The notes: generated by a model from the letters alone, not told the origin. DNA of 64,000 nt from a virus (IMGVR_UViG_3300029444_000365:1-64000); one strand, 5' to 3'; positions 1 through 24,845 are shown, counted from the stretch's first letter. Translations and numbers: made by a program.

Positions 1-114
1 ACGACATTTAAAACTCCAAGTGGTTTTATAATCGCTAAACTGATGATAAATAGCCTGTCCCATTGACAATTTGTAGGCATCTGTCTCCAATAAACTTGTA
101 ATAATCTGTTCCAT
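1..114 (-). CDS. pncB: nicotinate phosphoribosyltransferase, N-terminal 38 aa only (gene runs off window start)
   Basis: rc translation MEQIITSLLETDAYKLSMGQAIYHQFSDYKTTWSFKCR matches the conserved PncB N-terminus ([20 protein letters not shown]...FRCR); ATG 1 nt after stop of upstream ORF (TAATATG). Confidence 0.6.
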   Translation of the reverse strand, partial: MEQIITSLLETDAYKLSMGQAIYHQFSDYKTTWSFKCR

Positions 115-115
115 A

Positions 116-670
116 TTATTTTCCTTCTTTCTTGATTTGATTAAATATTGTTCTAATATCATATTCTCTGTTTTCGTACTCATAAAACAGATTAATATAC
201 TTATCAATAAAAGCTATGTCATTTGGATGCATTGCAATTGGCTTACTTTTCTTAGATTTCCACCATTTTAATTCCTTCTCAAAATTAAACGATTTACCAT
301 AATATGCTCTACCTGCTCCAAGATAATCACAAAACATTTCTTTTTTATACTTCATTGGCATTTCAATAGGATTTCCACCATTATCAAAATTGTCCTGCCA
401 ATATTCGTAATGGTGCTTGTTTCTTCCTTTATGGTGCATCCAAGCTGCTGACCAACCATTCTCTTTCTTGCAAGCATCTATTGGACTTGAAGTACCTTGA
501 TAATACTTAACACTCTCCCAAAATTCCGTTGGAGAAAATTTAGATAAATCATGTACTAACCCTTGAAATGGAATTCCCACTTTACAGCAATAGTAGAACA
601 CCCAATGTTTATGCGTACAGACTTTCTTAAAATGTCTGAAAGTATTAATGATATAATTCTTATACTTCAT
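116..670 (-). CDS. hypothetical Cys/His/Trp-rich protein (184 aa), translationally coupled between radical-SAM gene and pncB
   Basis: track ORF 116..745 trimmed to Met26 (MKYKNYIIN): GGAGAG RBS, ATG embedded in stop region of upstream gene (AATAATGAAGTATAA); no family recognised. Confidence 0.5.
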   Translation of the reverse strand: MKYKNYIINTFRHFKKVCTHKHWVFYYCCKVGIPFQGLVHDLSKFSPTEFWESVKYYQGTSSPIDACKKENGWSAAWMHHKGRNKHHYEYWQDNFDNGGNPIEMPMKYKKEMFCDYLGAGRAYYGKSFNFEKELKWWKSKKSKPIAMHPNDIAFIDKYINLFYEYENREYDIRTIFNQIKKEGK

Positions 671-1304
671 TATTCTCTCCAATCTTTCTATACTCCGTAT
701 ATACTTTGTTTTCACAGTAATACAAGTTATAATCACACTGTTCAATGTACCACCATAACTTCTGATGTCCTTCTTTAAGATATTCTCTACAATAATCTGT
801 TTCCTGATAGTGATTATCTACCATCTGTCTGAAACTCAACTCATCAATAATACCTGAGTTATGACAATATACTGCTATTCTGTTAATTAAATCCTCTGTG
901 AAATTTTCCGTGACCACAAATACAACTCTGACAATTTCGTTTTTTAATCGCTTGATGGATTTTAATTGTTTAAAATCATGTAAATGGTATACAACTCTGT
1001 CAAAATATGCATATGGTGCATCTTTTACATTTGGCATACTTGTATGTAGCTCTATCTGAACTCTATGTAAAGTTATATCGAAGAATTTCCTATACCACTC
1101 TACATTATTTTCTAAATTCCATAATGGATCTCCACCACCAGATATTGATACCCAATTACACTGATTTTTCTTAATCTCCTCTTCCAAAGAGTTCAATCCA
1201 TCAATCGTACTCTTTGGAATCTGAAGGTTATTATTCTTTACAATGCAATATGGACATGAATAGTGGCATCCAAAATTGGTTATCACACTCATGTACTTAT
1301 CCAT
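660..1304 (-). CDS. radical SAM enzyme (QueE/NrdG-activase-like, 214 aa)
   Basis: N-terminal CHYSCPYC (Cx3Cx2C) cluster, GGGDP (GGEP-like) SAM motif; B. subtilis-type QueE has similar CxYSCxWC. Confidence 0.75.
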   Translation of the reverse strand: MDKYMSVITNFGCHYSCPYCIVKNNNLQIPKSTIDGLNSLEEEIKKNQCNWVSISGGGDPLWNLENNVEWYRKFFDITLHRVQIELHTSMPNVKDAPYAYFDRVVYHLHDFKQLKSIKRLKNEIVRVVFVVTENFTEDLINRIAVYCHNSGIIDELSFRQMVDNHYQETDYCREYLKEGHQKLWWYIEQCDYNLYYCENKVYTEYRKIGENNEV

Positions 1305-1307
1305 ATT

Positions 1308-1817
1308 CTACTCTCCAATCACTTCAATCTGACAACTTTTCATAACTTCCATAGCCGCTTTATGTTTATCAGGTGTGACTCCTGCACAGCAACTTGCATC
1401 TACTGTGACATTAATAAATGGATAATCAGCTTTAATAATTAAAGCATTTGATACTACACAAATTTCGCTACAAAGACCAATAAGTTCTATATCATTGTTA
1501 AATCCAAAGTCAGTCCAATGTGTCCAACCAAAAGATTCCTTATTGATATATGCACAATTTGGAACTTCTAATCCGTCTGCAATCTGCCATCCATGAGTAT
1601 TGTAAATACAATGTTCAACTGGTAACTTGATACCTTCTGGTGTACTTAAATAGTTTTCATAATGTGTATCTCTTGTGAAAATAATTCTATCTCCACGATT
1701 ATAATATTCTTCAATTTTCTTCTTGACATTTGGAACAATTGCCTGTGCTTCCTTTGTACCGAGTGAGCCATCAATAAAATCATTCTGCATATCAATTACA
1801 ATTAATGTTTTGCTCAT
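1308..1817 (-). CDS. pncA: isochorismatase-family cysteine hydrolase, nicotinamidase (PncA)-like
   Basis: LIVIDMQNDF motif, catalytic Cys in GLCSEICV, DTH...H metal-site pattern typical of PncA; 169 aa. Confidence 0.65.
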   Translation of the reverse strand: MSKTLIVIDMQNDFIDGSLGTKEAQAIVPNVKKKIEEYYNRGDRIIFTRDTHYENYLSTPEGIKLPVEHCIYNTHGWQIADGLEVPNCAYINKESFGWTHWTDFGFNNDIELIGLCSEICVVSNALIIKADYPFINVTVDASCCAGVTPDKHKAAMEVMKSCQIEVIGE

Positions 1818-1951: not shown

Positions 1952-2309
1952 TTATTTTAGTTTTCTACTGTCATAGATGTTTCCCATACCATAACCATGA
2001 GTGCAAGCCATTAATGTGAAACAAATACCCTCTATTCCAATAACTCTACCGCCAATAAGACTATTCTCACTTACAGTTCCAACTCTTTGTACATCGTTTT
2101 CATAAGTTAATTTTGAATAGAGGGTAAATTAAAATTTTTTGCCACCGTATACAAGTAACTGAACCCACCAGCATTACCTACAGGCTGTGCCAATAAACAC
2201 ATTGCTACATGATCTGAATCATATACTCTATTACCCTGACGAAATTGCTTTCCAAAATTTATTTCACCGACACCACCAACTAACTGTGGTTTATCACCAC
2301 AAGCAGAAC
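1952..2309 (-). pseudogene. degenerate C5-methyltransferase TRD-like remnant (two frames, no start codon)
   Basis: immediately after MTase stop; frames read QGNRVYDSDHVAMCLLAQPVGNAGGFSYLY and IGGRVIGIEGICFTLMACTHGYGMG, i.e. two copies of the Q(G/S)xR(V/I)Y..G..(P)TL.A.GGG...Y block that precedes motif IX in C5-MTases; interrupted by stops. Confidence 0.3.
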
Positions 2310-3818
2310 TTAATCCACTTGTGGCTGATGAAAATTTACCATCTTCTCATCTGTACAAATATATGTATTGTCATACTGAGCCTTATATAAATGCTCAATC
2401 AACAAAGAGATGCAAGTTGTCACTATACTGTTACCGCTTTGTTTATATCCCTGAGTATCAGACATTCCAACTGCTTTACAGTTCTCATAATCAATATCAT
2501 CGAATCCCATGAGCCTGTGGCACTCTTTTGGCGTGAGCTTCCTCACAACTCTTAAATTGTCTCTTTCAACTTTTGGTTCTGTATTACCGCCACCACAAGT
2601 ATGCATAGCTGGTGCAATTCCATCTTCGCTATATACTCTGCGAGACTGTTCATGCATTCTCTGAAACTTTTCGCTGCATAAATCAGCAATATGTATTGGT
2701 TCGTTTGAGTCGGCAAGAATCTGTTTTGGCTGTTTATAATCGGTTGCCACTAAAGTACCCATTACTGAATCCTGCTGATAAACTAAATCTCTGTTACCTA
2801 ATCTGGTACAATTTTGTCCAATTGTTGTTCCTACTACATTCTTTTCAAATTTTGGATCTGTTATCTGAAGTCTTTTCTGTACTTCATCAGATAAGAAATA
2901 TTTCTCCAGAACACTGCTATCTGTTTCTAATAAATCCTTTAATCTGATTCCTGTATCAAAAGGCTGTGGAAATTCAAAAGACTTGGTATCAATATCCTTA
3001 CGAATAGAGATACAGAAGATTCTATTTCGATTCTGTGGAATACCTGTATTCTTTGCATTGATTGTCTGATAATATGAGTTATATCCCAAGTTATCAAGCC
3101 GAATCAGCCAATCCTTAAAACTGTCAATATACTTCTTTGATACAAGAGCATCTACATTCTCCATAAGCAAATACTTTGGTAATGTATTATTCTCTTTTGC
3201 TTTTACAAGAAGTCTCTCAACTTCATACAATAAACCTGAACGAGTTGATTTAATGTTGTGGTTGCCACAATTAGGGCATGTATAACGAGTATCTACGTCT
3301 AATTCAGATGGATCATATTCACAACCACAATCATGACATGTCCACTTTAATCCTTCCTGCTTACCGGCGATTGACAAATCTGTACATGGAGTCGAGTATG
3401 TAAGTAAATCACTATATGGCAGTGACTCAATCTGCATCATATCGCCAAGATTATGTGAAATATGGTCTGCTAACCAATATTTCTCAATACCTTTTGCCTT
3501 GTTCTTCTTTCGTGAAAGCTTCTCCCAATCATACGGAACATCTTTCTTAAAATCATATCCAAGTCTCTTATCTGTAAGCTGTTTTACCATTTCTTCTTTA
3601 CTTGGATAATCTTCATAATTTTCAATCATCTCATTAGTTAATCCACAATGAATTGCAGCATAACTAACTACTACTTCTTTGTCTAAATCTGCTGTTGCAA
3701 TCATATTTGCATTGAAGAGATGAGTATTATCAATTCCCTTCATCTGCGCACCAATACCACTGCAAAGCTCAATTACACTTAACTCACAATAATTATTTTT
3801 TTCTTTATTCTCTGTCAA
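2310..3818 (-). CDS. DNA (cytosine-5)-methyltransferase with internal zinc-ribbon insert
   Basis: motif I ELCSGIGAQ, motif IV TPCTDLSIAG (PC), ENV, QNRNRIF, TRD block SRRVYSEDGIAPAMHTCGGG, motif IX RKLTPKECHRLMGF, motif X QSGNSIV; insert CHDCGC..CPNCG. Confidence 0.85.
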   Translation of the reverse strand: MTENKEKNNYCELSVIELCSGIGAQMKGIDNTHLFNANMIATADLDKEVVVSYAAIHCGLTNEMIENYEDYPSKEEMVKQLTDKRLGYDFKKDVPYDWEKLSRKKNKAKGIEKYWLADHISHNLGDMMQIESLPYSDLLTYSTPCTDLSIAGKQEGLKWTCHDCGCEYDPSELDVDTRYTCPNCGNHNIKSTRSGLLYEVERLLVKAKENNTLPKYLLMENVDALVSKKYIDSFKDWLIRLDNLGYNSYYQTINAKNTGIPQNRNRIFCISIRKDIDTKSFEFPQPFDTGIRLKDLLETDSSVLEKYFLSDEVQKRLQITDPKFEKNVVGTTIGQNCTRLGNRDLVYQQDSVMGTLVATDYKQPKQILADSNEPIHIADLCSEKFQRMHEQSRRVYSEDGIAPAMHTCGGGNTEPKVERDNLRVVRKLTPKECHRLMGFDDIDYENCKAVGMSDTQGYKQSGNSIVTTCISLLIEHLYKAQYDNTYICTDEKMVNFHQPQVD

Positions 3819-4726: not shown

Positions 4727-5161
4727 TTACTTCCCAAATGGATTCTCCATAATACAATGGTCAACCATATCTTTAAATGCAAAAGGTGAATCAATCACTC
4801 TATTTGAATATCTGAAACGCTTTAAAAACTCAAGTACCTCATGTGCATCTCTATGTGATAATGGAATAAATGATACATACTCTGGATGACCTTTAATGCA
4901 TACAACCGCCCAAGAATGGTCATCAGAACAAAAACCAACATCCGTTCCAACATCTACCATCGAGTTCATCATCTTGTGACAATCATCAACCAATTTATAA
5001 GAATCTTCATATGCAATAGTTGCATCAGACAACCGTATATTGGCATATTCGCATCTTCTTCTTGCGTTATTGTATGATTTTTTAGCTGCTTCCACTTGAA
5101 ATAAATCATCTTCTAATAACCAATGTCTCAATTTATCTCGTATTTTATCCTTTAATTTCAC
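4727..5161 (-). CDS. hypothetical protein (144 aa)
   Basis: ORF in co-directional array, adjacent to macro gene. Confidence 0.5.
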   Translation of the reverse strand: MKLKDKIRDKLRHWLLEDDLFQVEAAKKSYNNARRRCEYANIRLSDATIAYEDSYKLVDDCHKMMNSMVDVGTDVGFCSDDHSWAVVCIKGHPEYVSFIPLSHRDAHEVLEFLKRFRYSNRVIDSPFAFKDMVDHCIMENPFGK

Positions 5162-5167: not shown

Positions 5168-5611
5168 TCACCTCTTACATACCAAAATCTCAACATCTGT
5201 ATCCGCAAAAATGTTTTTAATCTGTTCAGAGACATCATTCCAGTTCAATCTATCTAAGCCACAACCAATTACAGGCATTGCAATCTTCTTGATATTATTC
5301 TCCAAACAAATCTGTTTCATCTTTTCAAGTGCAAGTCTCATTGTAATTGTTGTTGGTTTGTGAAAATATCTCTCTTTTGTAATAAGATTTAATACCCTAT
5401 CTTCTAATAGACAATCACCACCAATCCTCTTATGAGTATACCGGTCAAAATAATATGGATATTTTGTCAGCAACCTTCTCTTCATATCAAACCTTTTATT
5501 GAACTCAACTACAATTCCTTTACCCATTCCAAAATCTGCACTGATACAATGTGCTAAATAATAATCTTCTGGTACTGTAAACAAGTCTTTATTTTCTTCT
5601 CTATATTTCAC
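5168..5611 (-). CDS. macro domain protein (ADP-ribose / ADP-ribose-1-phosphate / O-acetyl-ADP-ribose processing family)
   Basis: 147 aa, HCISADFGMGKGIVVEF...AMPVIGCGLDRL pattern typical of macro/Appr-1-p processing domains. Confidence 0.7.
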   Translation of the reverse strand: MKYREENKDLFTVPEDYYLAHCISADFGMGKGIVVEFNKRFDMKRRLLTKYPYYFDRYTHKRIGGDCLLEDRVLNLITKERYFHKPTTITMRLALEKMKQICLENNIKKIAMPVIGCGLDRLNWNDVSEQIKNIFADTDVEILVCKR

Positions 5612-5832
5612 TATTTCACCTCGCTTACCACTTTTATCTTACATTCGATTTCTACAACTTCTAGCTGCCTATCAGCGTTATAACGTCTTGACTTGAATCT
5701 TCTAACCGCATTCTCAGCAGTTTTTCTTGTTTCCCAATATTTGTGTCGTGGGTTTGTAAGATTACTTAGTAATTTTCCTGTTAATTTATCCATTACACCA
5801 TATAATGTAAATTCATTTTCCATCTCTTTCAC
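5611..5832 (-). CDS. hypothetical protein (73 aa)
   Basis: ORF, start overlaps macro gene stop. Confidence 0.45.
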   Translation of the reverse strand: MKEMENEFTLYGVMDKLTGKLLSNLTNPRHKYWETRKTAENAVRRFKSRRYNADRQLEVVEIECKIKVVSEVK

Positions 5833-5837
5833 CTCAC

Positions 5838-6038
5838 TTATTCTCTATATGGTTCAGGACATTTCTGCCACGCAACCACATCTACGGTGCTACCACTTGG
5901 TAAAACATCCCATATCCAATTTCCCTTTGGATATTCATATCTATCAGTTTGTCTTACCTGTCTCCCAAAAGATGTTTCTATTGTTACCAAATACCTTCCT
6001 TTTTTCTGTGGTGGATTTTTAGTTCCCCATTTTGCCAT
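5838..6038 (-). CDS. hypothetical protein (66 aa)
   Basis: ORF in array. Confidence 0.45.
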   Translation of the reverse strand: MAKWGTKNPPQKKGRYLVTIETSFGRQVRQTDRYEYPKGNWIWDVLPSGSTVDVVAWQKCPEPYRE

Positions 6039-6048
6039 TTATTTCACC

Positions 6049-6789
6049 TCACATCCATTTATCAATCTCGCTAAACACATTGCCTAGCGAATCAACAATC
6101 GTCAGATCCGTATCTTCATTCATTAACACTTGAATTTTTTCCCTATTGATAATAACCAAATGCCTACCACTGAAATACGAAATATAATTCGCTGCTGGAT
6201 AAACTTTTAATGAAGTGCCACCAATAATCAACATTTCAGCATCTCGAATGGCTCTGATTGCCCTATTTACCGCATCATTAGGAAGATTTTCTCCATATAA
6301 AGTTACGTCAGGTCTAATCAGACCACCACATTCACACTTTGGGATAGCTTCTTTAGTGTTAAACAAGAAATCTGAATGATATTCCATTTTACATTTACTA
6401 CAATAATTCCTCTGAGTAGTTCCATGAATTTCAAATACATTCTTACTGCCAGCTTTTTGATGAAGCCCATCAATGTTCTGTGTAACAATAGCCTTCAACT
6501 TACCTATTTCTTCCATCTTAGCAAGTACCTTATGAGTAATATTTGGCTCAATATTTCTTGTATCCATCTTCTGACGATAGAACTCATAGAATACCTTTGG
6601 ATTGTTATATAAGCATTCTCGACTCAAAAGATACTCTGGCTCGTATCTATCAAACTGAACGTCATGCTGATTATATAACCCATCCTTAGAACGAAAGTCT
6701 GGAATACCACTTTCAGTAGATACACCTGCTCCACCAAAGAATACAATATTATTTGATTCTTCTATATATTCTCTTAATTTTTCGTACAT
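6049..6789 (-). CDS. SIR2-family NAD-dependent protein deacylase (sirtuin)
   Basis: GAGVSTESGIPDFRS, QNIDGLH, two CxxC zinc pairs (CSKC..CECG), GTS motif; 246 aa. Confidence 0.85.
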   Translation of the reverse strand: MYEKLREYIEESNNIVFFGGAGVSTESGIPDFRSKDGLYNQHDVQFDRYEPEYLLSRECLYNNPKVFYEFYRQKMDTRNIEPNITHKVLAKMEEIGKLKAIVTQNIDGLHQKAGSKNVFEIHGTTQRNYCSKCKMEYHSDFLFNTKEAIPKCECGGLIRPDVTLYGENLPNDAVNRAIRAIRDAEMLIIGGTSLKVYPAANYISYFSGRHLVIINREKIQVLMNEDTDLTIVDSLGNVFSEIDKWM

Positions 6790-6799
6790 AGTTCTTACC

Positions 6800-7051
6800 T
6801 CACTCTATCATTTCAACTTTAATTCTAAATTTTGTTGTTTCTATATGTTCGCTTTCTTGATAAGGACGATTATAATCAAAGTGCTGATGTTTAACAGTCG
6901 CAATCAAGTGAGCATCATTGCCAGAAACAAATTTCGTATCTGTCTCATAAGTATCTTCTGAACCATCACCAAGTTTAGAGTCTGTACAATATATCTGATT
7001 TGCGTCTAATGCATCTTGAATAATTCTGTAAATTTCTCCTGTATTATACAT
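6800..7051 (-). CDS. hypothetical protein (83 aa)
   Basis: ORF in array. Confidence 0.45.
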   Translation of the reverse strand: MYNTGEIYRIIQDALDANQIYCTDSKLGDGSEDTYETDTKFVSGNDAHLIATVKHQHFDYNRPYQESEHIETTKFRIKVEMIE

Positions 7052-7061
7052 AGCTACTCCT

Positions 7062-8450
7062 TTAATACTCTATCCAACCATCTGTAATACCAGTCATCCA
7101 ATAAATAAGATCTTCTCTATCATTTTTTAATCTTCCATCTATTACACGAGTTAAGATTTCATTGAGCCAGTATCCAACTTCTTTTCCACTTTTAATGAGC
7201 ATTGTATCCATTACATCTTTTCCATTAACTGCTAAATCCTTTAGAGAAAAACATTCATCGTCCTGTAAAACTTCTTCCAAAATATATCCGATATTGTCAA
7301 TCTTCTGTAATCTTGTTTCCTGATTAATGTCTGCTTGTGCTTTAATATCAGCTCTACGAACATTTAATAACCTTCTGAACTGTTCTTCTCCAATTTTATT
7401 AAGCCATCTCTTGACATATTTCTTCCCCATCTCAAAAGTTGTATCATGATAATAAACAAGCTGCACTACTTTTTCTCTTGTATCATTATCAAAACGAAGT
7501 CTTTTCATAATTGTATCAGTCATATCAGCACTGACTCTTCCATGACCTTTAAAATGTCTAATACCATCTTCTCCATCCTGATAACAATGTGGTTTTCCTA
7601 TGTCATGAAAGAACACCGCTAATGATGTAATTAAATCTATTGAATTTAAGTCGGGTTCACAATCACATTCATAAGCTTGTACTGCATGTACTGTATGATT
7701 CCATACATCATAAATGTGATATGGATTATTCTGTTGAAAGCCAAGCATATCTTTAATTTCAGGAATGAACAACGAGAATACTTCACGGAATAATCCTATC
7801 TGTATATAAAACTCGCTTGATAATGCAATCTTACAGAACTCACTGTTGATTCTCTCAATAGATATATTCTCTAAATTCTTATACATTTTATGAATATTAA
7901 AACTCACATCAGAATCAACCACAAATCCCAGTTGTGAAGCAAACCGAATAGCACGTAAAATTCTTAAAGCATCTTCCGAAAATCTATCCTCTGCTCTACC
8001 AACACATCTGATTTTATAATGCTCAATATCTTCCATACCATTAAACGGATTTACAAGACCAACTTCATCATTGTATGCCATCGCATTGATTGTAAAATCT
8101 CTACGCTTCAAATCTTCTTTAAGACTTCGTGTAAATGTTACGCTATCAGGTCTACGACTATCTGAGTAATTACCGTCAATTCTGTAAGTGGTGCATTCAT
8201 ATCCTTCACCGTCAATTACAATGGTAATAGTTCCATGTTGTAAACCAGTTTCAATAATTCTCTTGTCCTTGAATACTTCCATCATTTCATCTGGTGTGGC
8301 AGAAGTTGTAATGTCGTAATCGTGAATTGGTCTGCCAAGAATACTATCTCTCACTGCACCACCACATAAAAATGCCTCATATCCATTATTCTGTAAAGTA
8401 TGAATAATTTCATTTGCACCAGATGGAATTTCAATTTTCAATTTCTTCAT
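7062..8450 (-). CDS. cca: CCA-adding tRNA nucleotidyltransferase with C-terminal HD domain
   Basis: GGAVRD..DxD head motif (LCGGAVRDSILGRPIHDYDITT), RRDFTINA, HD motif FFHDIGK; 462 aa. Confidence 0.85.
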   Translation of the reverse strand: MKKLKIEIPSGANEIIHTLQNNGYEAFLCGGAVRDSILGRPIHDYDITTSATPDEMMEVFKDKRIIETGLQHGTITIVIDGEGYECTTYRIDGNYSDSRRPDSVTFTRSLKEDLKRRDFTINAMAYNDEVGLVNPFNGMEDIEHYKIRCVGRAEDRFSEDALRILRAIRFASQLGFVVDSDVSFNIHKMYKNLENISIERINSEFCKIALSSEFYIQIGLFREVFSLFIPEIKDMLGFQQNNPYHIYDVWNHTVHAVQAYECDCEPDLNSIDLITSLAVFFHDIGKPHCYQDGEDGIRHFKGHGRVSADMTDTIMKRLRFDNDTREKVVQLVYYHDTTFEMGKKYVKRWLNKIGEEQFRRLLNVRRADIKAQADINQETRLQKIDNIGYILEEVLQDDECFSLKDLAVNGKDVMDTMLIKSGKEVGYWLNEILTRVIDGRLKNDREDLIYWMTGITDGWIEY

Positions 8451-8487
8451 TCAAATTCACCTCAATTTTTGGTATATTTATAAAATA

Positions 8488-9042
8488 TCACTTATTCGTT
8501 ATCATATCCAAAAACAACAAATCATCTTTCTTCAATGTGATATCATAACCTTTCCATTCTTCCATTAGCCCTCTTATATCAAATTTATGCGGAACAATAA
8601 TTGCATAGCCGTGAGGAGTCTTATGTACCTCTATCTCTAATAATGGAATTTCCGAATACATAGCTATCTCATGGACAAAATCATTCATCAATAACTCATC
8701 ATCCACATCAAAATCAAATAACCACTTGCCATCATCTCTGTTCTGCACTTGCAGTGCAACTGAAGCCAATGTGTGATTGAGACGTGTCATACTCAGTTTA
8801 TCTCTCAGTAGTCGGATAATAAATTCTTCTCTGATTTTATCTTCATTCCTTGAATTGACCGACCTGTATAATCTTGTCTGTTCACCAGGAACTCCTTTGG
8901 CTGCAAAACTCTTAAATTCTTCAATTATTTTGTCTTCATTCTCTTTATATTCAAGGATTGTTTCAATTCGCCCCTTGAAGTTTGGAACATCTTTATTATC
9001 CTTGTTACGAGAACGAATTAAATATACATATAAATTTGACAT
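8488..9042 (-). CDS. hypothetical protein (184 aa); weak 2H-phosphoesterase-like HxT x2 (NHTL, HKTP)
   Basis: track ORF trimmed to MSNLYVYLI start (AAGGAG RBS, 5 nt after Tpt1 stop); two HxT motifs only, weak. Confidence 0.5.
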   Translation of the reverse strand: MSNLYVYLIRSRNKDNKDVPNFKGRIETILEYKENEDKIIEEFKSFAAKGVPGEQTRLYRSVNSRNEDKIREEFIIRLLRDKLSMTRLNHTLASVALQVQNRDDGKWLFDFDVDDELLMNDFVHEIAMYSEIPLLEIEVHKTPHGYAIIVPHKFDIRGLMEEWKGYDITLKKDDLLFLDMITNK

Positions 9043-9047
9043 TGTAT

Positions 9048-9611
9048 TTATTCTCCTTCTAAATAACAGATTGGTACTTCTTTTGTAAGCCATACACCAT
9101 TTTGAGATAAAAAGAATTTATATCCGTCATTATACATATCTTTTGCTCGAACCTTATAAATAAACGGTTCTCCATGTCTACTGCCAACATTTGTTGCTGT
9201 TTCAATATCTTTTGATAGATGAACATATAAACGGCTCTTAGAGATTAATCCTTGTTTGTTGATTGAAGAACAATATTTGACACCTGTTCCATGATATAAA
9301 ATATCTGGTGGCATACACTCTTTTAATTCTACATCAACTTTTATAGAATGACCTTGATTTGCTCTTATAAGCGTCTTTTCTCGATTAAATGAATATCTCT
9401 GTTTAGAATCTTCTTCTACAATTTTCTCAAGCATTTTCATTGTAATCGTCTGAGTTTTATTGATTCCTTTTAATAGATCTGACACGTTAGCCCAACCATG
9501 TTTGTCTAATGTGATACCGATAACATCAGGTCTGTGTCTAAGAATTAATGCTATGTATTTGCTTAAATTATTTTGCTCTTTATTCGTCATAATGTTATCT
9601 CCATTCTCCAA
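9048..9611 (-). CDS. kptA: RNA 2'-phosphotransferase KptA/Tpt1 (NAD-dependent)
   Basis: LSKYIALILRHRP, HGT, RLYVHLS motifs; 187 aa. Confidence 0.8.
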   Translation of the reverse strand: MENGDNIMTNKEQNNLSKYIALILRHRPDVIGITLDKHGWANVSDLLKGINKTQTITMKMLEKIVEEDSKQRYSFNREKTLIRANQGHSIKVDVELKECMPPDILYHGTGVKYCSSINKQGLISKSRLYVHLSKDIETATNVGSRHGEPFIYKVRAKDMYNDGYKFFLSQNGVWLTKEVPICYLEGE

Positions 9612-9831
9612 TATACTCAGAACATTCTTTTTTGAATTTTTCCAATATATGTATTAAGCTATCTATTTCATAAGAATCCTTAAATGTTATTTCAATTATT
9701 TCAGGCTTAGATATATCAATATTGTCAGTAGTGTAGGGCAATGGTTTCATAAAGCAATCAAATCTGACGTTCAACCCTTTATGTGTCAATCTTATTTGAT
9801 TGACATTTTCTTTATTTCCAACAACCTTCAA
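9595..9831 (-). CDS. hypothetical protein (78 aa)
   Basis: ORF overlapping Tpt1 start region. Confidence 0.45.
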   Translation of the reverse strand: MKVVGNKENVNQIRLTHKGLNVRFDCFMKPLPYTTDNIDISKPEIIEITFKDSYEIDSLIHILEKFKKECSEYIGEWR

Positions 9832-9948
9832 ATAGATTTCACCTCCAAAATTCCATAAGAAATGTGCGTTTCTTTCTAATGCAAAATATATACCACATAT
9901 AGTATATATTGCTTATTTTTAATACTATATATGGTATATCCATAACAA

Positions 9949-10338
9949 TTATTCACTTAATTCTGCAAGTGCCTTATCCAGATCCTCATCAGACATATTT
10001 TCAAGTGCCGCATCCTGTCTCTTAGCTTTGATTTCAAGCAATCTCTGTCTCATCTCAGCATTTTTCTTAGCATCTTCTCTCTTCTTTTTCTCATCCAGCT
10101 TCACGCTAACAATATACTTAACAATTTCAATCTTGTTAGAAATCTCCTCGTCTTCCTTTGACTTAGTATTCAGAAGACTCTCTTCCTCAGACTTCTTTAC
10201 TTCCGCATTGAGTGTCTTGAATACTGAGTCCAGATTTGTGAGAGATAAATCCCACAAATCAATTACATTAATCATTCCTCTGAATGGGAACTGATAGTTT
10301 GCTCTTGTTGCATTAATAAATAATTCGTTGTTTGTCAT
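9949..10338 (-). CDS. hypothetical protein (129 aa), charged C-terminal coiled coil
   Basis: ORF in array. Confidence 0.5.
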   Translation of the reverse strand: MTNNELFINATRANYQFPFRGMINVIDLWDLSLTNLDSVFKTLNAEVKKSEEESLLNTKSKEDEEISNKIEIVKYIVSVKLDEKKKREDAKKNAEMRQRLLEIKAKRQDAALENMSDEDLDKALAELSE

Positions 10339-10356
10339 AATAATCTCCTTTTCTAA

Positions 10357-12414
10357 TTAAAACTTAATCTTCATTACACGCTCTGTTGCGCCCTTAACCT
10401 TAACAACTAAATCTGCTCTCTTTGTCATAGAGAATCCAATTCCTGAAAGCTGATCATCAGTATCTTCTACATGGCACTTAGCACCTAAAGCCTCAAATAC
10501 TCTCTTGTGCTTTTCAAGGTCACTCTTTAAGAACTCATTGTAATAGCCATTAGGATCTTCGCTATTTACACAATCCTTCAGGAAAAAGAATAAATGTCTA
10601 TGACCAATTCCATCCTGCTCATCAAAATAATTTGGACTATAACTAATTACTGATACAGGAACAAACTGATTAGTGCTTACACCCCAAATCTCACGACTTG
10701 AGATAGATGAACTTCCAGATAACTTTTCCTTAATTGAGAAGTTGCCATTCTTGTCAAGTGTTACCTCTGCCACCTGAACTTTCTCACCAGTTCTCATAGG
10801 ATTGCTATAATCAAATGAATAAATCTCTCCATTGAACTCAACTTCTGCTCTAAATCCATGTCTTACTGCACCTGAATACTGATGTACAAAGAACTTATAA
10901 ACACCTGGTTTCATTCTTGACAGGTCTTCCCAAGTAATATTCTCTACTGCAACCTTTCTATCTGGATGAATAATATCAACGTCTAACTGACCACCCATTC
11001 TTGAAACACTTGGCTTTCTACAATTACTAAAGAAAATTTCATTCTCATCTGGCTCAATACAATGTGCATCAAGGTCGTAATTATCATGACCATCTTCGTT
11101 CCACTGAATAGAAAATCTGAGTACACCGTCAACATTACCGCCAGCAGCTTTTACATTCTGTTTCATATCAGAATCAGTAATGTTTCCTGAATAAGCCCAA
11201 GACAATCCATTATTCCACTTGAACATTGTCTTAGCGTCTGGATTAACAGGTGCAACCATAGAAACAAAATTCTTCTCATGCTTATTCTCTACAAAAGCTT
11301 CAATTTCTTTTGCGGTTGGAAGTACCTTATCAATGAAATCCTGTGCTGAAATCTCTTCAACCTTAGAAAACTTCTTAGGACTTACAGCAACATCCTTTTC
11401 CATCTGACCAAAAATATCATCTGCACCAACCATTCTTCTTGCAGCACTCTTATTTGAGAACAGTACATTATTTACAGTAATATCATTCAGATTAGCAAAT
11501 CTTCTCTGTAATGAATCCATATATCCAAGCTCTGTAATGGTCTTCTTTGCATCCTCAAGCATTTTCTTTGTAAAAATAGCCTTTGGTCTTTTATAGTTGC
11601 TCGGTGCTGTAATCTGCTCATACTTCTTAACTGCTGTGTCAAGATCCATATCCTCACTTACATTAATAAGAAGTGTTCCAATAGAATGATTTCTAATTCT
11701 ACCGATAGCCATACCTGCTGTTACCGACTTCTCCCAAGCATATAAATCCTTTTCAGTATCAGAAGTCAGCTTATCATATTCTTTCTTATACTTCTTGAAC
11801 TCTGTGAGTACACCTTTCCACTCTTCGCCCTTGTAAAGTGTATTTGAATTGATAAGTTCAAGAATTGTATCGAGTGCATCCATAGTAATTTCATCAAGAG
11901 AACGCTTAAATACATTTCTTGTGTCTCTGAACTGTCCCTTAACTTCCTCGTTTGAACGGCTACTTCTATTTACGAACTTGCTTGGAAGTTCTAAGAAAAA
12001 GTGATCCCACTGATGAGACTTTCCATTGATTTCCTCAAAATTAAAATCTGTACCAATCTTAGGGAACTTAGTTGTATAAATATCTGTAACTGTATGAGCT
12101 TTTACGAAAGCATCAAGTGCATCACATACTGGCTGATATGTTGTATCACCAAGATTCAGTTCCCAAATCGTATGAATCTGGTTATCCTTGATAGTTACAG
12201 CAGAACCAATATTCTTAATAAACTGTCTACAACAACTACAATCATGTTCTCTACGCTCTCTGAAAATCTCATTTGTACCAGCAGGGAAGCTATCAAGATA
12301 TGTATTCCATAATTCATCCTTATCTACATTTACCTCAAATAAATGTGTTGCCTCTTTCTGCATTTCATCGAAGTGCTTCTGTAATGCCTTCTTAAATTTC
12401 ATAAATCCATCCAT
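10357..12414 (-). CDS. large hypothetical protein (685 aa)
   Basis: long uninterrupted ORF; CSCC cluster near N-terminus; no family recognised. Confidence 0.6.
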   Translation of the reverse strand: MDGFMKFKKALQKHFDEMQKEATHLFEVNVDKDELWNTYLDSFPAGTNEIFRERREHDCSCCRQFIKNIGSAVTIKDNQIHTIWELNLGDTTYQPVCDALDAFVKAHTVTDIYTTKFPKIGTDFNFEEINGKSHQWDHFFLELPSKFVNRSSRSNEEVKGQFRDTRNVFKRSLDEITMDALDTILELINSNTLYKGEEWKGVLTEFKKYKKEYDKLTSDTEKDLYAWEKSVTAGMAIGRIRNHSIGTLLINVSEDMDLDTAVKKYEQITAPSNYKRPKAIFTKKMLEDAKKTITELGYMDSLQRRFANLNDITVNNVLFSNKSAARRMVGADDIFGQMEKDVAVSPKKFSKVEEISAQDFIDKVLPTAKEIEAFVENKHEKNFVSMVAPVNPDAKTMFKWNNGLSWAYSGNITDSDMKQNVKAAGGNVDGVLRFSIQWNEDGHDNYDLDAHCIEPDENEIFFSNCRKPSVSRMGGQLDVDIIHPDRKVAVENITWEDLSRMKPGVYKFFVHQYSGAVRHGFRAEVEFNGEIYSFDYSNPMRTGEKVQVAEVTLDKNGNFSIKEKLSGSSSISSREIWGVSTNQFVPVSVISYSPNYFDEQDGIGHRHLFFFLKDCVNSEDPNGYYNEFLKSDLEKHKRVFEALGAKCHVEDTDDQLSGIGFSMTKRADLVVKVKGATERVMKIKF

Positions 12415-12515
12415 GTTTTGTACCTCTTCTTTCTTATATTTATTTTTGTTAATTGTTTCTACTATTATATTCTCCGTTTTATAAATTAAAAGGTCTGTTT
12501 TATTACCCTTTGAAT

Positions 12516-12545
12516 GAGTTAGTAGGCTATGACACCTACTAACTC
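12516..12545. other. perfect 11-bp inverted repeat hairpin (GAGTTAGTAGG / CCTACTAACTC, 8-nt loop) at 3' end of transporter operon
   Basis: seen directly; T-rich only on plus side, so not a canonical minus-strand intrinsic terminator. Confidence 0.4.
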
Positions 12546-12550
12546 TTGAA

Positions 12551-12643
12551 TTATTTATTCTTCTTACGTTTTCCTACAATAAAACCTGCTCCAAAGCATA
12601 CACCAAGACAGATTACGAAAACTCCAATGTTTAATACAATCAT
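12551..12643 (-). CDS. small hydrophobic peptide (30 aa, MIVLNIGVFVICLGVCFGAGFIVGKRKKNK)
   Basis: AGGTGA RBS, single TM helix plus basic tail; below track cutoff. Confidence 0.3.
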   Translation of the reverse strand: MIVLNIGVFVICLGVCFGAGFIVGKRKKNK

Positions 12644-12651
12644 ATTGTCAC

Positions 12652-14235
12652 CTACTCAATAATCTTAAATGATACATCTGTTCTTCTATTCATTGCACGA
12701 TGTTCCTCTGTATCATTATCTATTACAGGATTGCTTGAACCGTTACCAACAGTTACGATTCTATCTGCTGAAATACCATTCATAATGAAGTAATTCTTAA
12801 CAGCTTCCGCTCTCTGGGCTGATAACTTCTGATTGTACTCGTCCTGCGGATCTGAATTTGGATTAGGATCTGTATTACCAGCAATCTCAATAATTGCTCC
12901 ATCGAGTACATTTGCAATATCAATAAATTTATTAAGCTCCTCGGATGCGGCGGCTGAATCTGTAAACTGGGCTGTATTCTTATTAAATGTTACCGAAGCA
13001 GATCCACTTAATAATGCCTCCGTATCCTGTACTTCCTGCTTATTATCATCTGTTACCTTTACTGTGTCTGTGTTAGATACATCTGTAGCATTAAACTTGT
13101 CTGCAATGGCATTAATATATGTATCATCAAAAATTGTATCTACTAAATCAGCATTTACAGTCTCACCAATTGATGTCCAAACATTGCACATATCTGAATA
13201 AATAGTCTTTGCTGTGCCATTTAATAAATCAGAATTGTCTTTCCAAGTTGTGAGTTTTGCAGTAGCTGCACTTCCTGCAATATCTTCATCAGATGCAGTA
13301 TTGAACATTGGCATTACTTCTCTGATTGCTGTAAACTCATTGTCGTACATATCGGATGCTTCAAGAGAACCCTGAACAAATTTCTCTACTATCTCTGGAT
13401 ATGCCTCTGCAAAATTCTTATCAAATAAAATTCCATCCATTACAAGATTTGTTGAGCTTGCTGTACTAAATAATACATGTGCATCTGTCATATTCTGTGC
13501 CTGTGTTAAATAAGGCTCCCATGTAGCAGCTACATCAACTTGTCCTGCAAAAAATGCTTTTGCTGTATCATCTGCTGTTGAGAATAATACAAGATTATCA
13601 ATAATATCAGATTTCTCATCGTCTGATAAATCAGAATTATTAACAAACCAAATAACTAATGTCTGTGCCTCTGAAAACTCAGGGACACCAATTTTTGCAC
13701 CAACTAAATCTTTTACTGAATTAATTGATGATTTGGCAATAATACCATCACCACCATTTGAGTAGTTTGTAATATATGGCATAATTACATCTTCACCAGC
13801 TTCTGTAAACTTTTGTGATAAAAATGCTGTTCTATTGATTGTATAGCCTGCCGCATTTAAATCACCTTTAATAAGGGCGTTGCTTGACTGTGTAGCATCA
13901 TTAATAACATTGATATTTACATTGATACCGAGTTTTCCATAAATAGAATCTGGCTGTGTTGTAAGTCCACCATTAGCGTCAATAATAGATTTCCAGCCAA
14001 TCCACTCATCTAATGAAAGATTAATAGTTCCGTCACTATTAGCTTTCTTTTTATTAGAACTAGAAGATGTTGTGCCAGTTACTTTGTTCCCTGCATTACT
14101 TATCGAAGTGTTACTCTTGGTTTTAATTAACCCTGTCTTTACACCAGCGAAAACACCACCACCAATTAATGCAATAACCAAAACCATAATTAAAATTTTT
14201 GAAGCTTTGGTAAGTCTAAATCTTTTTGTACTCAT
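12652..14235 (-). CDS. TM-anchored NMT1/SsuA-like substrate-binding protein fused to C-terminal OmpA-like peptidoglycan-binding domain
   Basis: N-terminal TM helix; SBP-like body; C-terminus AIIEIAGNTDPNPN...NQKLSAQRAEAVKNYF...NRRTDVSF matches OmpA/MotB C-domain consensus. Confidence 0.65.
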   Translation of the reverse strand: MSTKRFRLTKASKILIMVLVIALIGGGVFAGVKTGLIKTKSNTSISNAGNKVTGTTSSSSNKKKANSDGTINLSLDEWIGWKSIIDANGGLTTQPDSIYGKLGINVNINVINDATQSSNALIKGDLNAAGYTINRTAFLSQKFTEAGEDVIMPYITNYSNGGDGIIAKSSINSVKDLVGAKIGVPEFSEAQTLVIWFVNNSDLSDDEKSDIIDNLVLFSTADDTAKAFFAGQVDVAATWEPYLTQAQNMTDAHVLFSTASSTNLVMDGILFDKNFAEAYPEIVEKFVQGSLEASDMYDNEFTAIREVMPMFNTASDEDIAGSAATAKLTTWKDNSDLLNGTAKTIYSDMCNVWTSIGETVNADLVDTIFDDTYINAIADKFNATDVSNTDTVKVTDDNKQEVQDTEALLSGSASVTFNKNTAQFTDSAAASEELNKFIDIANVLDGAIIEIAGNTDPNPNSDPQDEYNQKLSAQRAEAVKNYFIMNGISADRIVTVGNGSSNPVIDNDTEEHRAMNRRTDVSFKIIE

Positions 14236-14250
14236 TCCATTCTCTCCTTA

Positions 14251-15518: not shown

Positions 15519-15535
15519 TTTGTTTCCTCCTTAAA

Positions 15536-19171: not shown

Positions 19172-19246
19172 CTAGGCTGGTGGGACTTGAACCCACAAAA
19201 CCTGCGGTCAAAGCGCAGTGCGTCTAACCAATTTCGCCACAGCCCA
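19172..19246 (-). tRNA. tRNA-Gln (anticodon UUG), no encoded CCA
   Basis: hand-folded cloverleaf: acceptor UGGGCUG/CAGCCUA with U1-A72, U8, D-loop GG, anticodon stem CUGCG/CGCAG, loop CUUUGAC, T-arm GUGGG-UUCAAGU-CCCAC, G73. Confidence 0.7.
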
Positions 19247-24787: not shown

Positions 24788-24845
24788 ATAATTTATTAAA
24801 TTTTGATTAAATATGTGAAAAATATGCTGAATTGCTTGAATTTAA

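What the first reader, a model, noticed from the sequence alone, without database searches (positions are those of the whole stretch)
5168..12414. Possible complete tRNA 2'-phosphate repair route: Tpt1 -> (2H-like?) -> macro, next to CCA-adding enzyme
Established knowledge: Tpt1 transfers the splice-junction 2'-phosphate to NAD giving ADP-ribose 1'',2''-cyclic phosphate, which a 2H cyclic phosphodiesterase opens to ADP-ribose-1''-phosphate, which a macro-domain phosphatase (Poa1-type) removes. Here Tpt1 (9048-9611) is flanked by a CCA-adding enzyme (7062-8450), a 184-aa ORF with two weak HxT motifs (8488-9042), a macro protein 3.5 kb away, and two tRNA genes that lack encoded CCA. This looks like an RNA-repair module, e.g. 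to undo host anticodon-nuclease or 2'-phosphate tRNA damage. An RNA ligase/kinase is not identifiable; the 685-aa unknown at 10357-12414 is the only candidate large enough.
Basis: inference. Interest (0 to 1): 0.7.

Follow-up and report, generated by a model that had tools for sequence, protein, structure and literature searches.

The report
Phage NAD/ADP-ribose and tRNA-end gene island

Summary
Observation confirmed. On the minus strand lie Tpt1 (9048-9590), a class II CCA-adding enzyme with an HD domain (7062-8450) and a macro protein (5168-5611). All three tRNA genes of the window lack an encoded CCA.

Interpretation only partly supported.
- The 184-aa ORF is not a 2H enzyme. It has one chance-level HxT, no conserved histidine pair in 54 homologues, and a confident model without a 2H fold.
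- The 685-aa protein is DUF8224. It is present in 555 phage records and has no ligase or kinase profile or motif.
- No RNA ligase, kinase or RtcB was found anywhere in the 64-kb window.
- The macro protein is TARG1/DarG-like. It accompanies Tpt1 in only 1 of 14 related loci.
- Tpt1 does track the CCA enzyme: 11 of 14 loci, p 7.5e-6.
- Sir2 is a single-gene insertion.
- An NAD+ salvage operon lies downstream and runs off the window edge.
- In a second phage group, Tpt1 sits inside such an operon, beside a DarG-like macro protein and NADAR.

Best reading: a mosaic NAD+/ADP-ribose counter-defence and tRNA-end island. The parts are known and the concept is known. Interest is modest.

The parts
9048..9590 (-). 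Tpt1/KptA RNA 2'-phosphotransferase (180 aa from ATG 9590). Catalytic tetrad present: R18-H19, R76, R120.
   Evidence: PF01885 E 1e-46. NCBIfam NF002014 245 bits, above the 239 cut-off. PDB 7kw8 E 1.6e-45. Motifs found by regex. Tetrad defined in PMC6097658.
9595..9831 (-). orf78, unknown function. It forms a two-gene cassette with Tpt1, ending 4 nt before the Tpt1 start.
   Evidence: Present in 13 of 14 Tpt1 loci against 11 of 47 others, p 4e-6. No Pfam, PHROG or NCBIfam match.
8488..9042 (-). orf184 (phrog_8839), the conserved anchor gene of the island. Fold is ferredoxin-like or AEP-primase-like. It is not a 2H phosphoesterase.
7062..8450 (-). Class II CCA-adding tRNA nucleotidyltransferase with an embedded HD domain (residues about 274-365).
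   Evidence: PolyA_pol 3.4e-36, tRNA_NucTran2_2 4.9e-12, HD 3.9e-6. PRK13299 318 bits, above the 290 cut-off. PDB 7otr and 1miv. Motifs GGAVRD, DYD, RRD and HD282/HD335.
6800..7051 (-). orf83, unknown function. In relatives it is found only downstream of the CCA enzyme.
   Evidence: Present in 5 of 17 CCA loci and 0 of 44 others. No family match.
6049..6789 (-). Canonical Sir2/CobB-type NAD+-dependent protein deacylase. It is a single-gene insertion relative to the closest relative.
   Evidence: PF02146 1.5e-56. NF001752 310 bits, above the 221 cut-off. PDB Sir2Tm 1yc5 1.1e-45. GAGVS, QNIDGLH, H122 and CSKC present. Window 6052-6797 is absent from L097.
5611..6038 (-). orf66 (5838-6038) and orf73 (5611-5832), small unknown ORFs between Sir2 and the macro protein.
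   Evidence: No significant family: only a weak phrog_15198 hit at E 0.0045.
5168..5611 (-). TARG1/OARD1-like macrodomain protein (147 aa, ALC1-type clade, DarG-related). Catalytic Lys in 'ITKE' and Asp in 'GCGLD'.
   Evidence: PDB 4j5r (human OARD1) E 1e-26. TARG1 pattern TKx(33)PxIGxGxD matched (pattern from PMC6397177). NCBIfam DarG 5.7e-12 and PADLOC DarG 1.9e-15 over the macro part only. phrog_335 7.9e-21.
4727..5161 (-). orf144, unknown function. It is the usual downstream partner of the macro gene.
   Evidence: Co-occurs with the macro gene in 11 of 17 loci against 4 of 44 others, p 2.5e-5. No family match.
9949..12414 (-). DUF8224 (685 aa, 10357-12414) plus orf129 (phrog_2018, 9949-10338). 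This pair is conserved in phages and is independent of Tpt1.
   Evidence: phrog_1735 6e-268 and phrog_2018 2e-36. PF26675 on relatives. 555 phage records. The same pair occurs in a Bacillus phage and in C. difficile pCD1602_4 with no Tpt1 in the stretches examined. No KxDG motif and no P-loop.
1..1817 (-). Start of an NAD+ salvage operon: isochorismatase/nicotinamidase-like (1308-1817), radical-SAM-like (660-1304), DUF5662 (119-670), and the NAPRT N-terminus (1-114, cut by the window edge).
   Evidence: PF00857 2.8e-23. Weak match to nicotinamidase NF008623. tblastn: DUF5662 96% identity, NAPRT 100% over 38 aa. Relatives continue with NMNAT and NAD synthase.
19172..19246 (-). tRNA-Gln(UUG) without an encoded CCA. 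Also tRNA-Gln(UUG) at 24715-24788 (-) and tRNA-Met at 63616-63690 (+), neither with CCA.
   Evidence: ARAGORN, Rfam, and sequence downstream of each 3' end.

Best explanation
The interval is part of a mosaic accessory-gene island of a large temperate gut-Firmicute phage (about 150 kb). It is not one dedicated pathway. A conserved anchor gene, orf184, is flanked by interchangeable cassettes that share two themes.

1. RNA and tRNA end maintenance. The orf78-Tpt1 cassette and the CCA-adding/HD enzyme are usually inherited together.
- Shown by homology: Tpt1 has all four catalytic residues, so it should transfer RNA 2'-phosphates to NAD+.
- Shown by homology: the CCA enzyme should add CCA to the phage's three CCA-less tRNAs and rebuild trimmed tRNA tails.
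- Inferred: together, helped by the HD domain, they could heal phosphorylated or truncated tRNA 3' ends without a ligase.

2. NAD+ and ADP-ribose conflict.
- A canonical Sir2 deacylase consumes NAD+ and makes O-acetyl-ADP-ribose.
- A free-standing TARG1/DarG-like macrodomain protein removes ADP-ribose from nucleic acids, proteins or O-acetyl-ADP-ribose. It is an orphan-antitoxin-like enzyme of the kind shown elsewhere to neutralise DarT.
- A separate downstream operon (nicotinamidase, NAPRT, and in relatives NMNAT and NAD synthase) rebuilds NAD+ from the nicotinamide that Tpt1, Sir2 and host NADases release.

The macro protein may also clear ADP-ribose-1''-phosphate derived from Tpt1, but that is a possible side benefit and not the organising principle.
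For: - Gene identities and catalytic motifs.
- Island behaviour: 48 distinct architectures among 61 full loci around orf184, and none reproduces the window.
- Tpt1 and the CCA enzyme co-occur in 11 of 14 Tpt1 loci (odds ratio 25, p 7.5e-6). After collapsing identical architectures it is 7 of 10, p 0.0018. In a second sample it is 20 of 23.
- Tpt1 with macro: 1 of 14. Sir2 with macro: 1 of 8. Macro with orf144: 11 of 17.
- Sir2 is a one-gene indel relative to a relative that is about 96% identical.
- The NAD+ salvage genes lie downstream and run off the window edge.
- Independent support for the NAD/ADP-ribose theme comes from a second phage group whose Tpt1 is 64% identical. In at least 22 loci the order is NAMPT, a 162-aa ORF, Tpt1, orf139, DarG-like macro, SLOG, NADAR, NAD synthase.
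- Literature:
  - phage macro (AdfM) and NADAR (AdfN) proteins reverse DarT ADP-ribosylation (PMC13309987, PMC11825919);
  - phage NAD+ reconstitution pathways counter NADase immunity (PMC13464706);
  - tRNA-tail cleavage is an immune mechanism (PMC12851939);
  - some Tpt1 enzymes remove terminal 2'/3'-phosphates (PMC6573784).
Against: - No activity was measured. Every function rests on homology.
- The loci compared are related phages, so the co-occurrence statistics overstate independence even after collapsing architectures.
- Tpt1 and the CCA enzyme flank the same anchor gene, so physical linkage alone could explain part of their association.
- The Tpt1-CCA link is not seen outside this phage family: 0 of 53 other Tpt1 loci.
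- The window's Tpt1 is closest in sequence to PDB 7kw8, which I recall (not verified with a tool) to be Runella slithyformis Tpt1. That enzyme is reported to be inept on terminal phosphates. This weakens the ligase-free end-healing idea.
- Only 64 kb of a genome of about 150 kb was seen, so a ligase could be encoded elsewhere.
- The host is unknown; the only hits are MAG bins.
Confidence: 0.55

Rival explanations
1. One reading: a self-contained tRNA 2'-phosphate repair route. [quoted passage not shown]
For: - Tpt1, macro and CCA genes are intact and lie in one co-directional array.
- The Tpt1 stop lies 5 nt from the orf184 start.
- In another phage group Tpt1 lies one gene from a macro protein.
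- The KptA-2H-Macro idea for phages is in the literature (PMC9503650 and PMC7824862).
Against: - orf184 has no 2H motif pair, no 2H profile match and no 2H fold. It is present whether or not Tpt1 is: 47 of 61 loci lack Tpt1.
- DUF8224 has no ligase or kinase profile or motif, and it occurs in hundreds of phages without Tpt1.
- No ligase, PNK or RtcB was found in the window, nor in recurrent Tpt1 neighbourhoods.
- The macro gene accompanies Tpt1 in 1 of 14 and 1 of 23 loci.
Confidence: 0.07
2. No functional coupling at all. Each gene is an independent accessory gene ('moron'). The CCA enzyme only matures the phage's own CCA-less tRNAs. Tpt1, Sir2 and the macro protein act separately on unrelated targets. 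Their adjacency reflects a recombination hotspot next to orf184.
For: - 48 architectures in 61 loci.
- Single-gene indels such as Sir2.
- Cassettes swap at fixed junctions.
- CCA enzymes are common in phages: 371 records.
- All three tRNA genes lack CCA.
Against: - The Tpt1-CCA association survives collapsing to unique architectures (p 0.0018).
- NAD+-consuming, ADP-ribose-processing and NAD+-regenerating genes recur together in two separate phage groups. This is more thematic than random cargo.
Confidence: 0.25
3. A writer-eraser pair. Tpt1 ADP-ribosylates 5'-phosphate ends of RNA or DNA (a capping reaction shown in vitro for Tpt1/KptA enzymes) and the TARG1-like macro protein removes the cap.
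For: - Tpt1/KptA enzymes ADP-ribosylate 5'-phosphorylated nucleic-acid ends, and TARG1 reverses this in vitro (PMC8883491; PMC12678800 abstract).
- The window's macro protein carries the TARG1 signature.
Against: - The writer and the proposed eraser are not co-inherited: 1 of 14 and 1 of 23 loci.
- No in vivo role for the capping reaction is established in bacteria or phages.
Confidence: 0.07

Closest known systems
Yeast tRNA-splicing by-product route: Tpt1, then Cpd1 (2H cyclic phosphodiesterase), then Poa1 (macro, ADP-ribose-1''-phosphate phosphatase)
   Same: A bona fide Tpt1 with the full catalytic tetrad. A macrodomain of the same ALC1-type clade as Poa1 lies nearby.
   Different: - No 2H enzyme.
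- No Trl1-type ligase to create 2'-phosphate junctions.
- The macro protein belongs to the TARG1-like subclass, not the POA1-like subclass (PMC6397177).
- The two genes are not co-inherited in relatives.
Predicted phage KptA-2H-Macro / RNA-ligase repair systems (Iyer, Burroughs, Aravind and co-workers, PMC7824862 and PMC9503650)
   Same: A phage-encoded KptA, a CCA-adding enzyme and a macro protein in a large phage. NAD+-linked RNA end clean-up is the proposed logic.
   Different: Here there is no 2H enzyme, RNA ligase, PNK or HAD phosphatase partner. Tpt1 is instead tied to a CCA/HD enzyme and, in a sister group, to NAMPT, macro and NADAR genes.
Orphan antitoxin-like ADP-ribosylhydrolases of phages: AdfM (DarG2-like macro) and AdfN (DarG1-like NADAR)
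   Same: A free-standing macrodomain related to DarG/TARG1 with the catalytic Lys, lacking the DarT-binding domain and lacking an adjacent DarT. Relatives of this phage also carry NADAR genes.
   Different: - The window's protein is far closer to TARG1/OARD1 (E 1e-26) than to DarG macrodomains (E 7e-5 and 0.009).
- Anti-DarT activity is untested.
- The host defence repertoire is unknown.
Phage NAD+ reconstitution pathways (NARP1, NARP2, NARP3)
   Same: A phage operon of NAD+ salvage enzymes sits beside NAD+-consuming and ADP-ribose-processing genes.
   Different: - The route here looks Preiss-Handler-like (nicotinamidase, NAPRT, NMNAT, NAD synthase). Some relatives have NAMPT plus a Prs-like gene instead.
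- Only its first genes lie inside the window.
- No function has been tested.
Phage T4 tRNA repair (Pnkp plus Rnl1 against the anticodon nuclease PrrC)
   Same: The presumed purpose: keeping tRNAs usable during infection.
   Different: No kinase-phosphatase and no ligase. Any repair here would be of the 3' end (CCA rebuilding), not rejoining of a broken anticodon loop.

Membership tests
Tpt1/KptA RNA 2'-phosphotransferase | Full-length match to the family profile above the curated threshold | tested here: met
   PF01885 159.7 bits against a cut-off of 26. NCBIfam equivalog NF002014 245.4 bits against 239.
Tpt1/KptA RNA 2'-phosphotransferase | Catalytic Arg-His-Arg-Arg tetrad (RslTpt1 R16, H17, R64, R119) | tested here: met
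   R18-H19, R76 (IRANQGHS) and R120 (RLYVHL) found. Residues defined in PMC6097658.
Tpt1/KptA RNA 2'-phosphotransferase | NAD+-dependent removal of an RNA 2'-phosphate | not testable with these tools
   Needs an enzyme assay.
2H phosphoesterase (LigT/CPDase), proposed for orf184 | Two conserved H-x-T/S motifs | tested here: not met
   One literal HxT, at chance level. Among 54 homologues, H90 is conserved in none, H140 is His in 15 (Tyr in 22), and only H152 is common (42 of 54), without a T/S partner.
2H phosphoesterase (LigT/CPDase), proposed for orf184 | 2H fold (pseudo-symmetric bilobed beta-sheet fold) or a profile match | tested here: not met
TARG1-like macrodomain (ALC1-type clade) | Signature TKx(30,35)Px[IL]GxGxD with the catalytic Lys and Asp | tested here: met
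   The regex matches residues 78-120. The pattern and catalytic residues come from PMC6397177. Alignment to human OARD1 has E 1e-26.
TARG1-like macrodomain (ALC1-type clade) | ADP-ribosyl hydrolase or O-acetyl-ADP-ribose deacetylase activity | not testable with these tools
   Needs an enzyme assay.
Poa1-type ADP-ribose-1''-phosphate phosphatase | Membership of the POA1-like subclass | not tested
   No Poa1 sequence was compared. The literature places POA1-like and TARG1-like as separate subclasses of the ALC1 clade, with POA1-like restricted to Saccharomyces (PMC6397177).
DarG antitoxin (DarTG2) | Macrodomain plus a C-terminal DarT-binding domain, encoded next to DarT | tested here: not met
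   Only the macro part matches: model positions 26-145 of 338, 45.6 bits against a cut-off of 250. The protein is 147 aa. The Pfam, PHROG and PADLOC scans of the flanking ORFs gave no match other than Tpt1 that I would read as an ADP-ribosyltransferase. So it is at most an orphan DarG-like hydrolase.
Class II CCA-adding enzyme | Pol-beta head domain with the GGxVRD, DxD and RRD motifs, and an equivalog-level profile match | tested here: met
   The extra HD domain (H252/H255, HD282, HD335) resembles that of the multifunctional CCA/repair enzymes (NF008137 match).
Sir2 protein deacylase | Rossmann motifs, catalytic His and a Zn-binding Cys pair; profile above cut-off | tested here: met
   PF02146 191.6 bits. 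NF001752 309.6 bits against 221. GAGVS, QNIDGLH, H122 and CSKC present.
RNA ligase / polynucleotide kinase / RtcB, proposed for DUF8224 | Nucleotidyltransferase KxDG motif, a P-loop, or a profile match | tested here: not met
   No K.DG and no GxxxxGK[ST]. No ligase, PNK or RtcB family in Pfam at E up to 0.1. No NCBIfam or PADLOC match. No PDB sequence match at E up to 1. The AF2 model is too poor to use, pLDDT 45.9.
Ligase-based tRNA repair system (T4 Pnkp/Rnl1 type or RtcB type) | An RNA ligase and an end-healing enzyme encoded with the other parts | tested here: not met
   No such Pfam family in any ORF of at least 100 aa of the 64-kb window, nor in recurrent neighbours of Tpt1 in 53 other loci. 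The rest of the genome was not seen.

The most novel reading that the evidence does not exclude
Phage Tpt1 is itself a counter-defence enzyme. Fed by the phage's own NAD+ salvage operon, it would strip terminal or internal 2'/3'-phosphates from tRNAs damaged by immune nucleases. The CCA-adding/HD enzyme could then rebuild the acceptor end without any ligase. This would be a ligase-independent, NAD+-driven route for repairing tRNA tails. It would also give Tpt1 its first physiological role outside tRNA splicing in fungi and plants and tRNA 2'-phosphouridine removal in archaea.
Probability: 0.15. Interest if true: 0.7.

Novelty: new member of a known kind. Interest (0 to 1): 0.35.

Why it matters
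The role of Tpt1/KptA in bacteria and phages is a long-standing open question (PMC6573784). This locus and its relatives give two concrete genomic leads.
- In one family of gut phages, Tpt1 travels with a CCA-adding/HD enzyme.
- In another family, Tpt1 sits inside an NAD+ salvage, macro and NADAR operon.

Both point to NAD+-linked conflict biology rather than classical ligase-based repair, and both suggest simple assays. For annotation, three corrections follow: phrog_8839 should not be called a 2H enzyme, DUF8224 should not be called a ligase, and the macro protein is TARG1/DarG-like. The components themselves are ordinary, and the general concept has already been published.

Tried and rejected
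1. 2H identity of orf184. Rejected on motifs, profiles and fold.
2. DUF8224 as a ligase or kinase. Rejected on profiles, motifs and distribution.
   - The structure prediction failed for lack of diverse homologues: all 120 listed hits are at least 86% identical, and the model has pLDDT 45.9.
   - For that reason no fold search was run on it.
3. Megablast of the region against known phages found nothing. This phage family is known only from metagenomes.
4. The promoter scan was uninformative: 78 sites against 88 expected.
5. The Rfam scan found only the three tRNAs and no riboswitch upstream of the NAD+ genes.
6. The AFDB fold library was unavailable.
7. The BFVD search gave only uncharacterised phage proteins.
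8. Host identification through species genomes gave only MAG bins: 'uncultured Bacilli', Acetatifactor and Phascolarctobacterium. The host is unresolved.
9. Known phages with the closest Tpt1 (C. difficile phiCD211, Erwinia Ea35-70) show no annotated CCA, macro or 2H gene, and no convincing RNA ligase, near it. phiCD211 does carry a 133-aa ORF annotated 'ATP-dependent DNA ligase' about 2.7 kb downstream of kptA; I did not examine it. C. difficile pCD1602_4 has DUF8224, orf129 and the CCA enzyme together, but no Tpt1 in the 45 kb examined.
10. A literature search for an experimentally shown counter-defence role of phage Tpt1 found none.

Full report
**What is there**

All genes of the finding lie on the minus strand in a tight co-directional array. 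Reading 5' to 3', the order is:
- DUF8224 (12414-10357)
- orf129 (10338-9949)
- orf78 (9831-9595)
- Tpt1 (9590-9048)
- orf184 (9042-8488)
- CCA-adding enzyme (8450-7062)
- orf83 (7051-6800)
- Sir2 (6789-6049)
- orf66 and orf73 (6038-5611)
- macro (5611-5168)
- orf144, orf98 and orf124 (5161-4006)
- Dcm methylase (3818-2310)

From orf78 to orf124 every gap is 37 nt or less. No terminator-like hairpin lies on the coding strand between about 15.7 kb and the hairpin at 1891-1866. Co-transcription is therefore plausible but unproven. The promoter scan was no better than shuffled sequence.

**Identities**

- Tpt1 is unambiguous.
  - PF01885 has E 1e-46.
  - NCBIfam equivalog NF002014 is above its cut-off.
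  - PDB 7kw8 has E 1.6e-45.
  - The essential Arg-His-Arg-Arg tetrad is present (residues from PMC6097658).
- The CCA enzyme has a Firmicute-type class II head, with PRK13299 above its cut-off. It also carries an HD domain with intact His/Asp motifs.
- The macro protein is only at the Pfam threshold, but it aligns end to end with human OARD1/TARG1 at E 1e-26.
  - It matches the published TARG1 signature TKx(30,35)Px[IL]GxGxD, which contains the catalytic Lys and Asp.
  - It hits the macro part of the DarG models.
- The three tRNA genes, two tRNA-Gln(UUG) and one tRNA-Met, lie outside the stated interval. None has an encoded CCA.

**The 2H claim**

- orf184 has one literal H-x-T/S. That is expected by chance in 36% of shuffles.
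- In an alignment of 54 homologues down to 28% identity, the invariant residues are R12, D15, N16, F46, R57, Y59, N63, R65, D110, D112, F154 and D173.
- No pair of histidines is conserved.
- An AlphaFold model built from that alignment is very confident (pLDDT 95.6).
  - The top hits are generic ferredoxin-like domains aligned over about 65 residues.
  - The only 2H structure in the list, 1fsi, aligns 66 residues.
- BFVD returns only uncharacterised phage proteins.
- Neither the sequence nor its profile matches any PDB chain at E up to 10.
- The family (phrog_8839) also occurs in Streptococcus prophages, between a replicative helicase and a resolvase, and in Lactococcus 949-group phages, with no Tpt1 nearby.

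The 2H assignment is rejected. A primase-like or other nucleotidyl-transfer role is only a weak suggestion.

**The ligase claim**

- The 685-aa protein is DUF8224 (phrog_1735). It is conserved at about 40% identity across 555 phage records, from Bacillus Bastille-like phages to Ackermannviridae.
- Its partner orf129 follows it here, in a Bacillus phage and in C. difficile pCD1602_4, in stretches that carry no Tpt1.
- It has no ligase, kinase or RtcB profile match at E up to 0.1. It has no KxDG motif, no P-loop and no PDB relative.
- A structure prediction failed for want of diverse homologues.
- A Pfam survey of every other ORF of at least 100 aa in the window found no RNA ligase, polynucleotide kinase, RtcB or 2H enzyme.

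**Comparative genomics**

The window belongs to a large family of gut-metagenome phages of about 100-200 kb.
- The window carries an integrase and a YonO-like RdRP-fold protein, and relatives carry YopX. From memory, these are features of SPbeta-like phages.
- There is no near match among cultured phages.
- GC content is a uniform 32-36%.

I compared 61 full 20-kb loci centred on orf184.
- There are 48 different gene orders, and none reproduces the window.
- Gene counts: Tpt1 in 14 loci, the CCA enzyme in 17, macro in 17, Sir2 in 8, and a metallophosphoesterase in 6.
- Tpt1 is almost always preceded by orf78 (13 of 14).
- Tpt1 is usually accompanied by the CCA enzyme.
  - The count is 11 of 14 loci (odds ratio 25, p 7.5e-6).
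  - After collapsing identical architectures it is 7 of 10, p 0.0018.
  - An independent retrieval by Tpt1 gave 20 of 23.
- The macro gene accompanies Tpt1 in only 1 of 14 loci (1 of 23 in the second sample). It accompanies Sir2 in 1 of 8.
- The steady partner of the macro gene is orf144 (11 of 17, p 2.5e-5). It is sometimes paired with the metallophosphoesterase (4 of 6).
- A relative about 96% identical in nucleotide sequence lacks exactly the Sir2 gene.

The region is therefore a mix-and-match island, and only the Tpt1-CCA pairing looks non-random. These loci are related to one another, so the p-values are upper bounds on the strength of the evidence.

**The unifying theme is NAD+ and ADP-ribose**

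- Downstream of the array, after a terminator-like hairpin, come four genes:
  - an isochorismatase-family (nicotinamidase-like) gene;
  - a radical-SAM-like gene;
  - DUF5662;
  - the first 38 codons of NAPRT, cut by the window edge.
- Relatives continue in one of two ways.
  - Some carry NMNAT and NAD synthase.
  - Others carry instead a Prs-like gene, NAMPT, a DarG-like macro protein, NADAR and NAD synthase.
  - A bacterial-type PARG is often present too.
- A second phage group has a Tpt1 64% identical to the window's. In at least 22 loci Tpt1 is embedded in such an operon. The order is NAMPT, a 162-aa ORF (it shows a DxDGxL-like motif to my eye, but no Pfam match), Tpt1, orf139, DarG-like macro (PDB 5m31, E 1.2e-5), SLOG, NADAR, NAD synthase and NMNAT.
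- The remaining Tpt1 loci sit in other settings, near a MazF, HTH and integrase trio or near a different metallophosphoesterase.
- In none of them was a ligase or kinase profile found among recurrent neighbours.

**Comparison with what is known**

- The idea that phage KptA works with 2H and macro domains in RNA repair is already published as a prediction (PMC7824862, PMC9503650).
- Phage macro (AdfM) and NADAR (AdfN) proteins have been shown to act as orphan antitoxin-like enzymes that strip DarT-made ADP-ribose from phage DNA.
- Phage NAD+ reconstitution pathways that defeat NADase immunity are established.
- tRNA-tail cleavage has recently been shown to be an immune mechanism.
- Some Tpt1 enzymes, including that of Clostridium thermocellum, remove terminal 2'/3'-phosphates.
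- No experimental counter-defence role for a phage Tpt1 was found in the library.

**Verdict**

- The 2H step and the ligase candidate are refuted.
- The macro protein is a TARG1/DarG-like hydrolase that is inherited independently of Tpt1.
- The best-supported functional link is between Tpt1 and the CCA/HD enzyme.

The most likely description is a mosaic accessory island that combines tRNA-end maintenance, ADP-ribose removal and NAD+ regeneration, probably to cope with host immunity. Every function is inferred from homology and gene context, and nothing was assayed. Only 64 kb of the genome was visible, and the host is unknown.

This is a new member of a known kind and of modest interest. One reading is worth testing: that Tpt1 and the CCA/HD enzyme form a ligase-independent, NAD+-driven route for repairing tRNA tails.

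Noticed in passing
window 6049-6797: The Sir2 gene is a clean single-gene insertion or deletion relative to a relative that is about 96% identical (L097/L018, IMGVR_UViG_3300045988_134708). In two other relatives Sir2 occupies the slot where the CCA enzyme usually sits.
   Followed up: partly
window 1-1891: An NAD+ salvage operon (nicotinamidase-like isochorismatase, radical-SAM-like protein, DUF5662, NAPRT) starts after a terminator-like hairpin at 1891-1866 and runs off the left edge of the window. Relatives continue with NMNAT and NAD synthase, or swap in NAMPT, a Prs-like gene, macro and NADAR.
   Followed up: partly
window 12652-16886: The phage carries an ABC transporter set: a permease, an ATPase, a PspA/IM30-like protein, and a substrate-binding NMT1/THI5-like domain fused to an OmpA-like domain. 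In relatives the module sits on the other side of DUF8224-orf129. Its cargo is unknown; import of an NAD+ or vitamin precursor is a guess only.
   Followed up: no
window 25362-27310; L120-L145: A PemK/MazF-type endoribonuclease gene lies next to the integrase. In several other phage groups the same trio of MazF, HTH protein and integrase lies only 2-4 kb from Tpt1. MazF cuts leave 2',3'-cyclic phosphate ends (from memory; not checked here), so a link to Tpt1 is conceivable but untested.
   Followed up: no
L147-L172 (about 8000-13500 in each locus): A second gut-phage group has Tpt1 embedded in the gene order NAMPT, 162-aa ORF (DxDGxL-like motif by eye, no Pfam match), Tpt1, orf139, DarG-like macro, SLOG (YAcAr), NADAR, NAD synthase and NMNAT. 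An adenylosuccinate synthetase, an isochorismatase and a metallophosphoesterase lie upstream. I found no description of this Tpt1-in-NAD-operon arrangement in the papers read.
   Followed up: partly
window 8488-9042 and alignment A2: phrog_8839 (orf184) gives a very confident model (pLDDT 95.6). It has invariant DxD, RxYxxxNxR and SRNKDN motifs and weak similarity to archaeo-eukaryotic primase catalytic domains. The family is widespread in Firmicute phages and has no assigned function.
   Followed up: partly
window 9949-12414: DUF8224 (685 aa) and its 129-aa partner are about 40% identical between Firmicute phages and Ackermannviridae, in 555 phage records. That is unusually strong conservation for a protein of unknown function. 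In a Bacillus phage an ATP-binding protein follows the pair.
   Followed up: partly
window 19172-19246 and 24715-24788: There are two different tRNA-Gln(UUG) genes 5.5 kb apart, plus a tRNA-Met at 63616-63690. The reason for duplicate Gln isoacceptors is unknown.
   Followed up: no
window 53622-62753: This plus-strand block contains a DUF3825 protein, two GIY-YIG endonuclease-like ORFs (55533-56651 and 59527-59991), and a 922-aa protein matching the RdRP family PF05183 (59985-62753). The last resembles, from memory, the YonO-type single-subunit RNA polymerase of SPbeta-like phages.
   Followed up: no
window 1950-2310: The 492-nt gap after the Dcm gene contains short reading-frame fragments that look like coding remnants, ending in stops at about 2110 and 1955. 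They may be a decayed gene. This was not verified.
   Followed up: no
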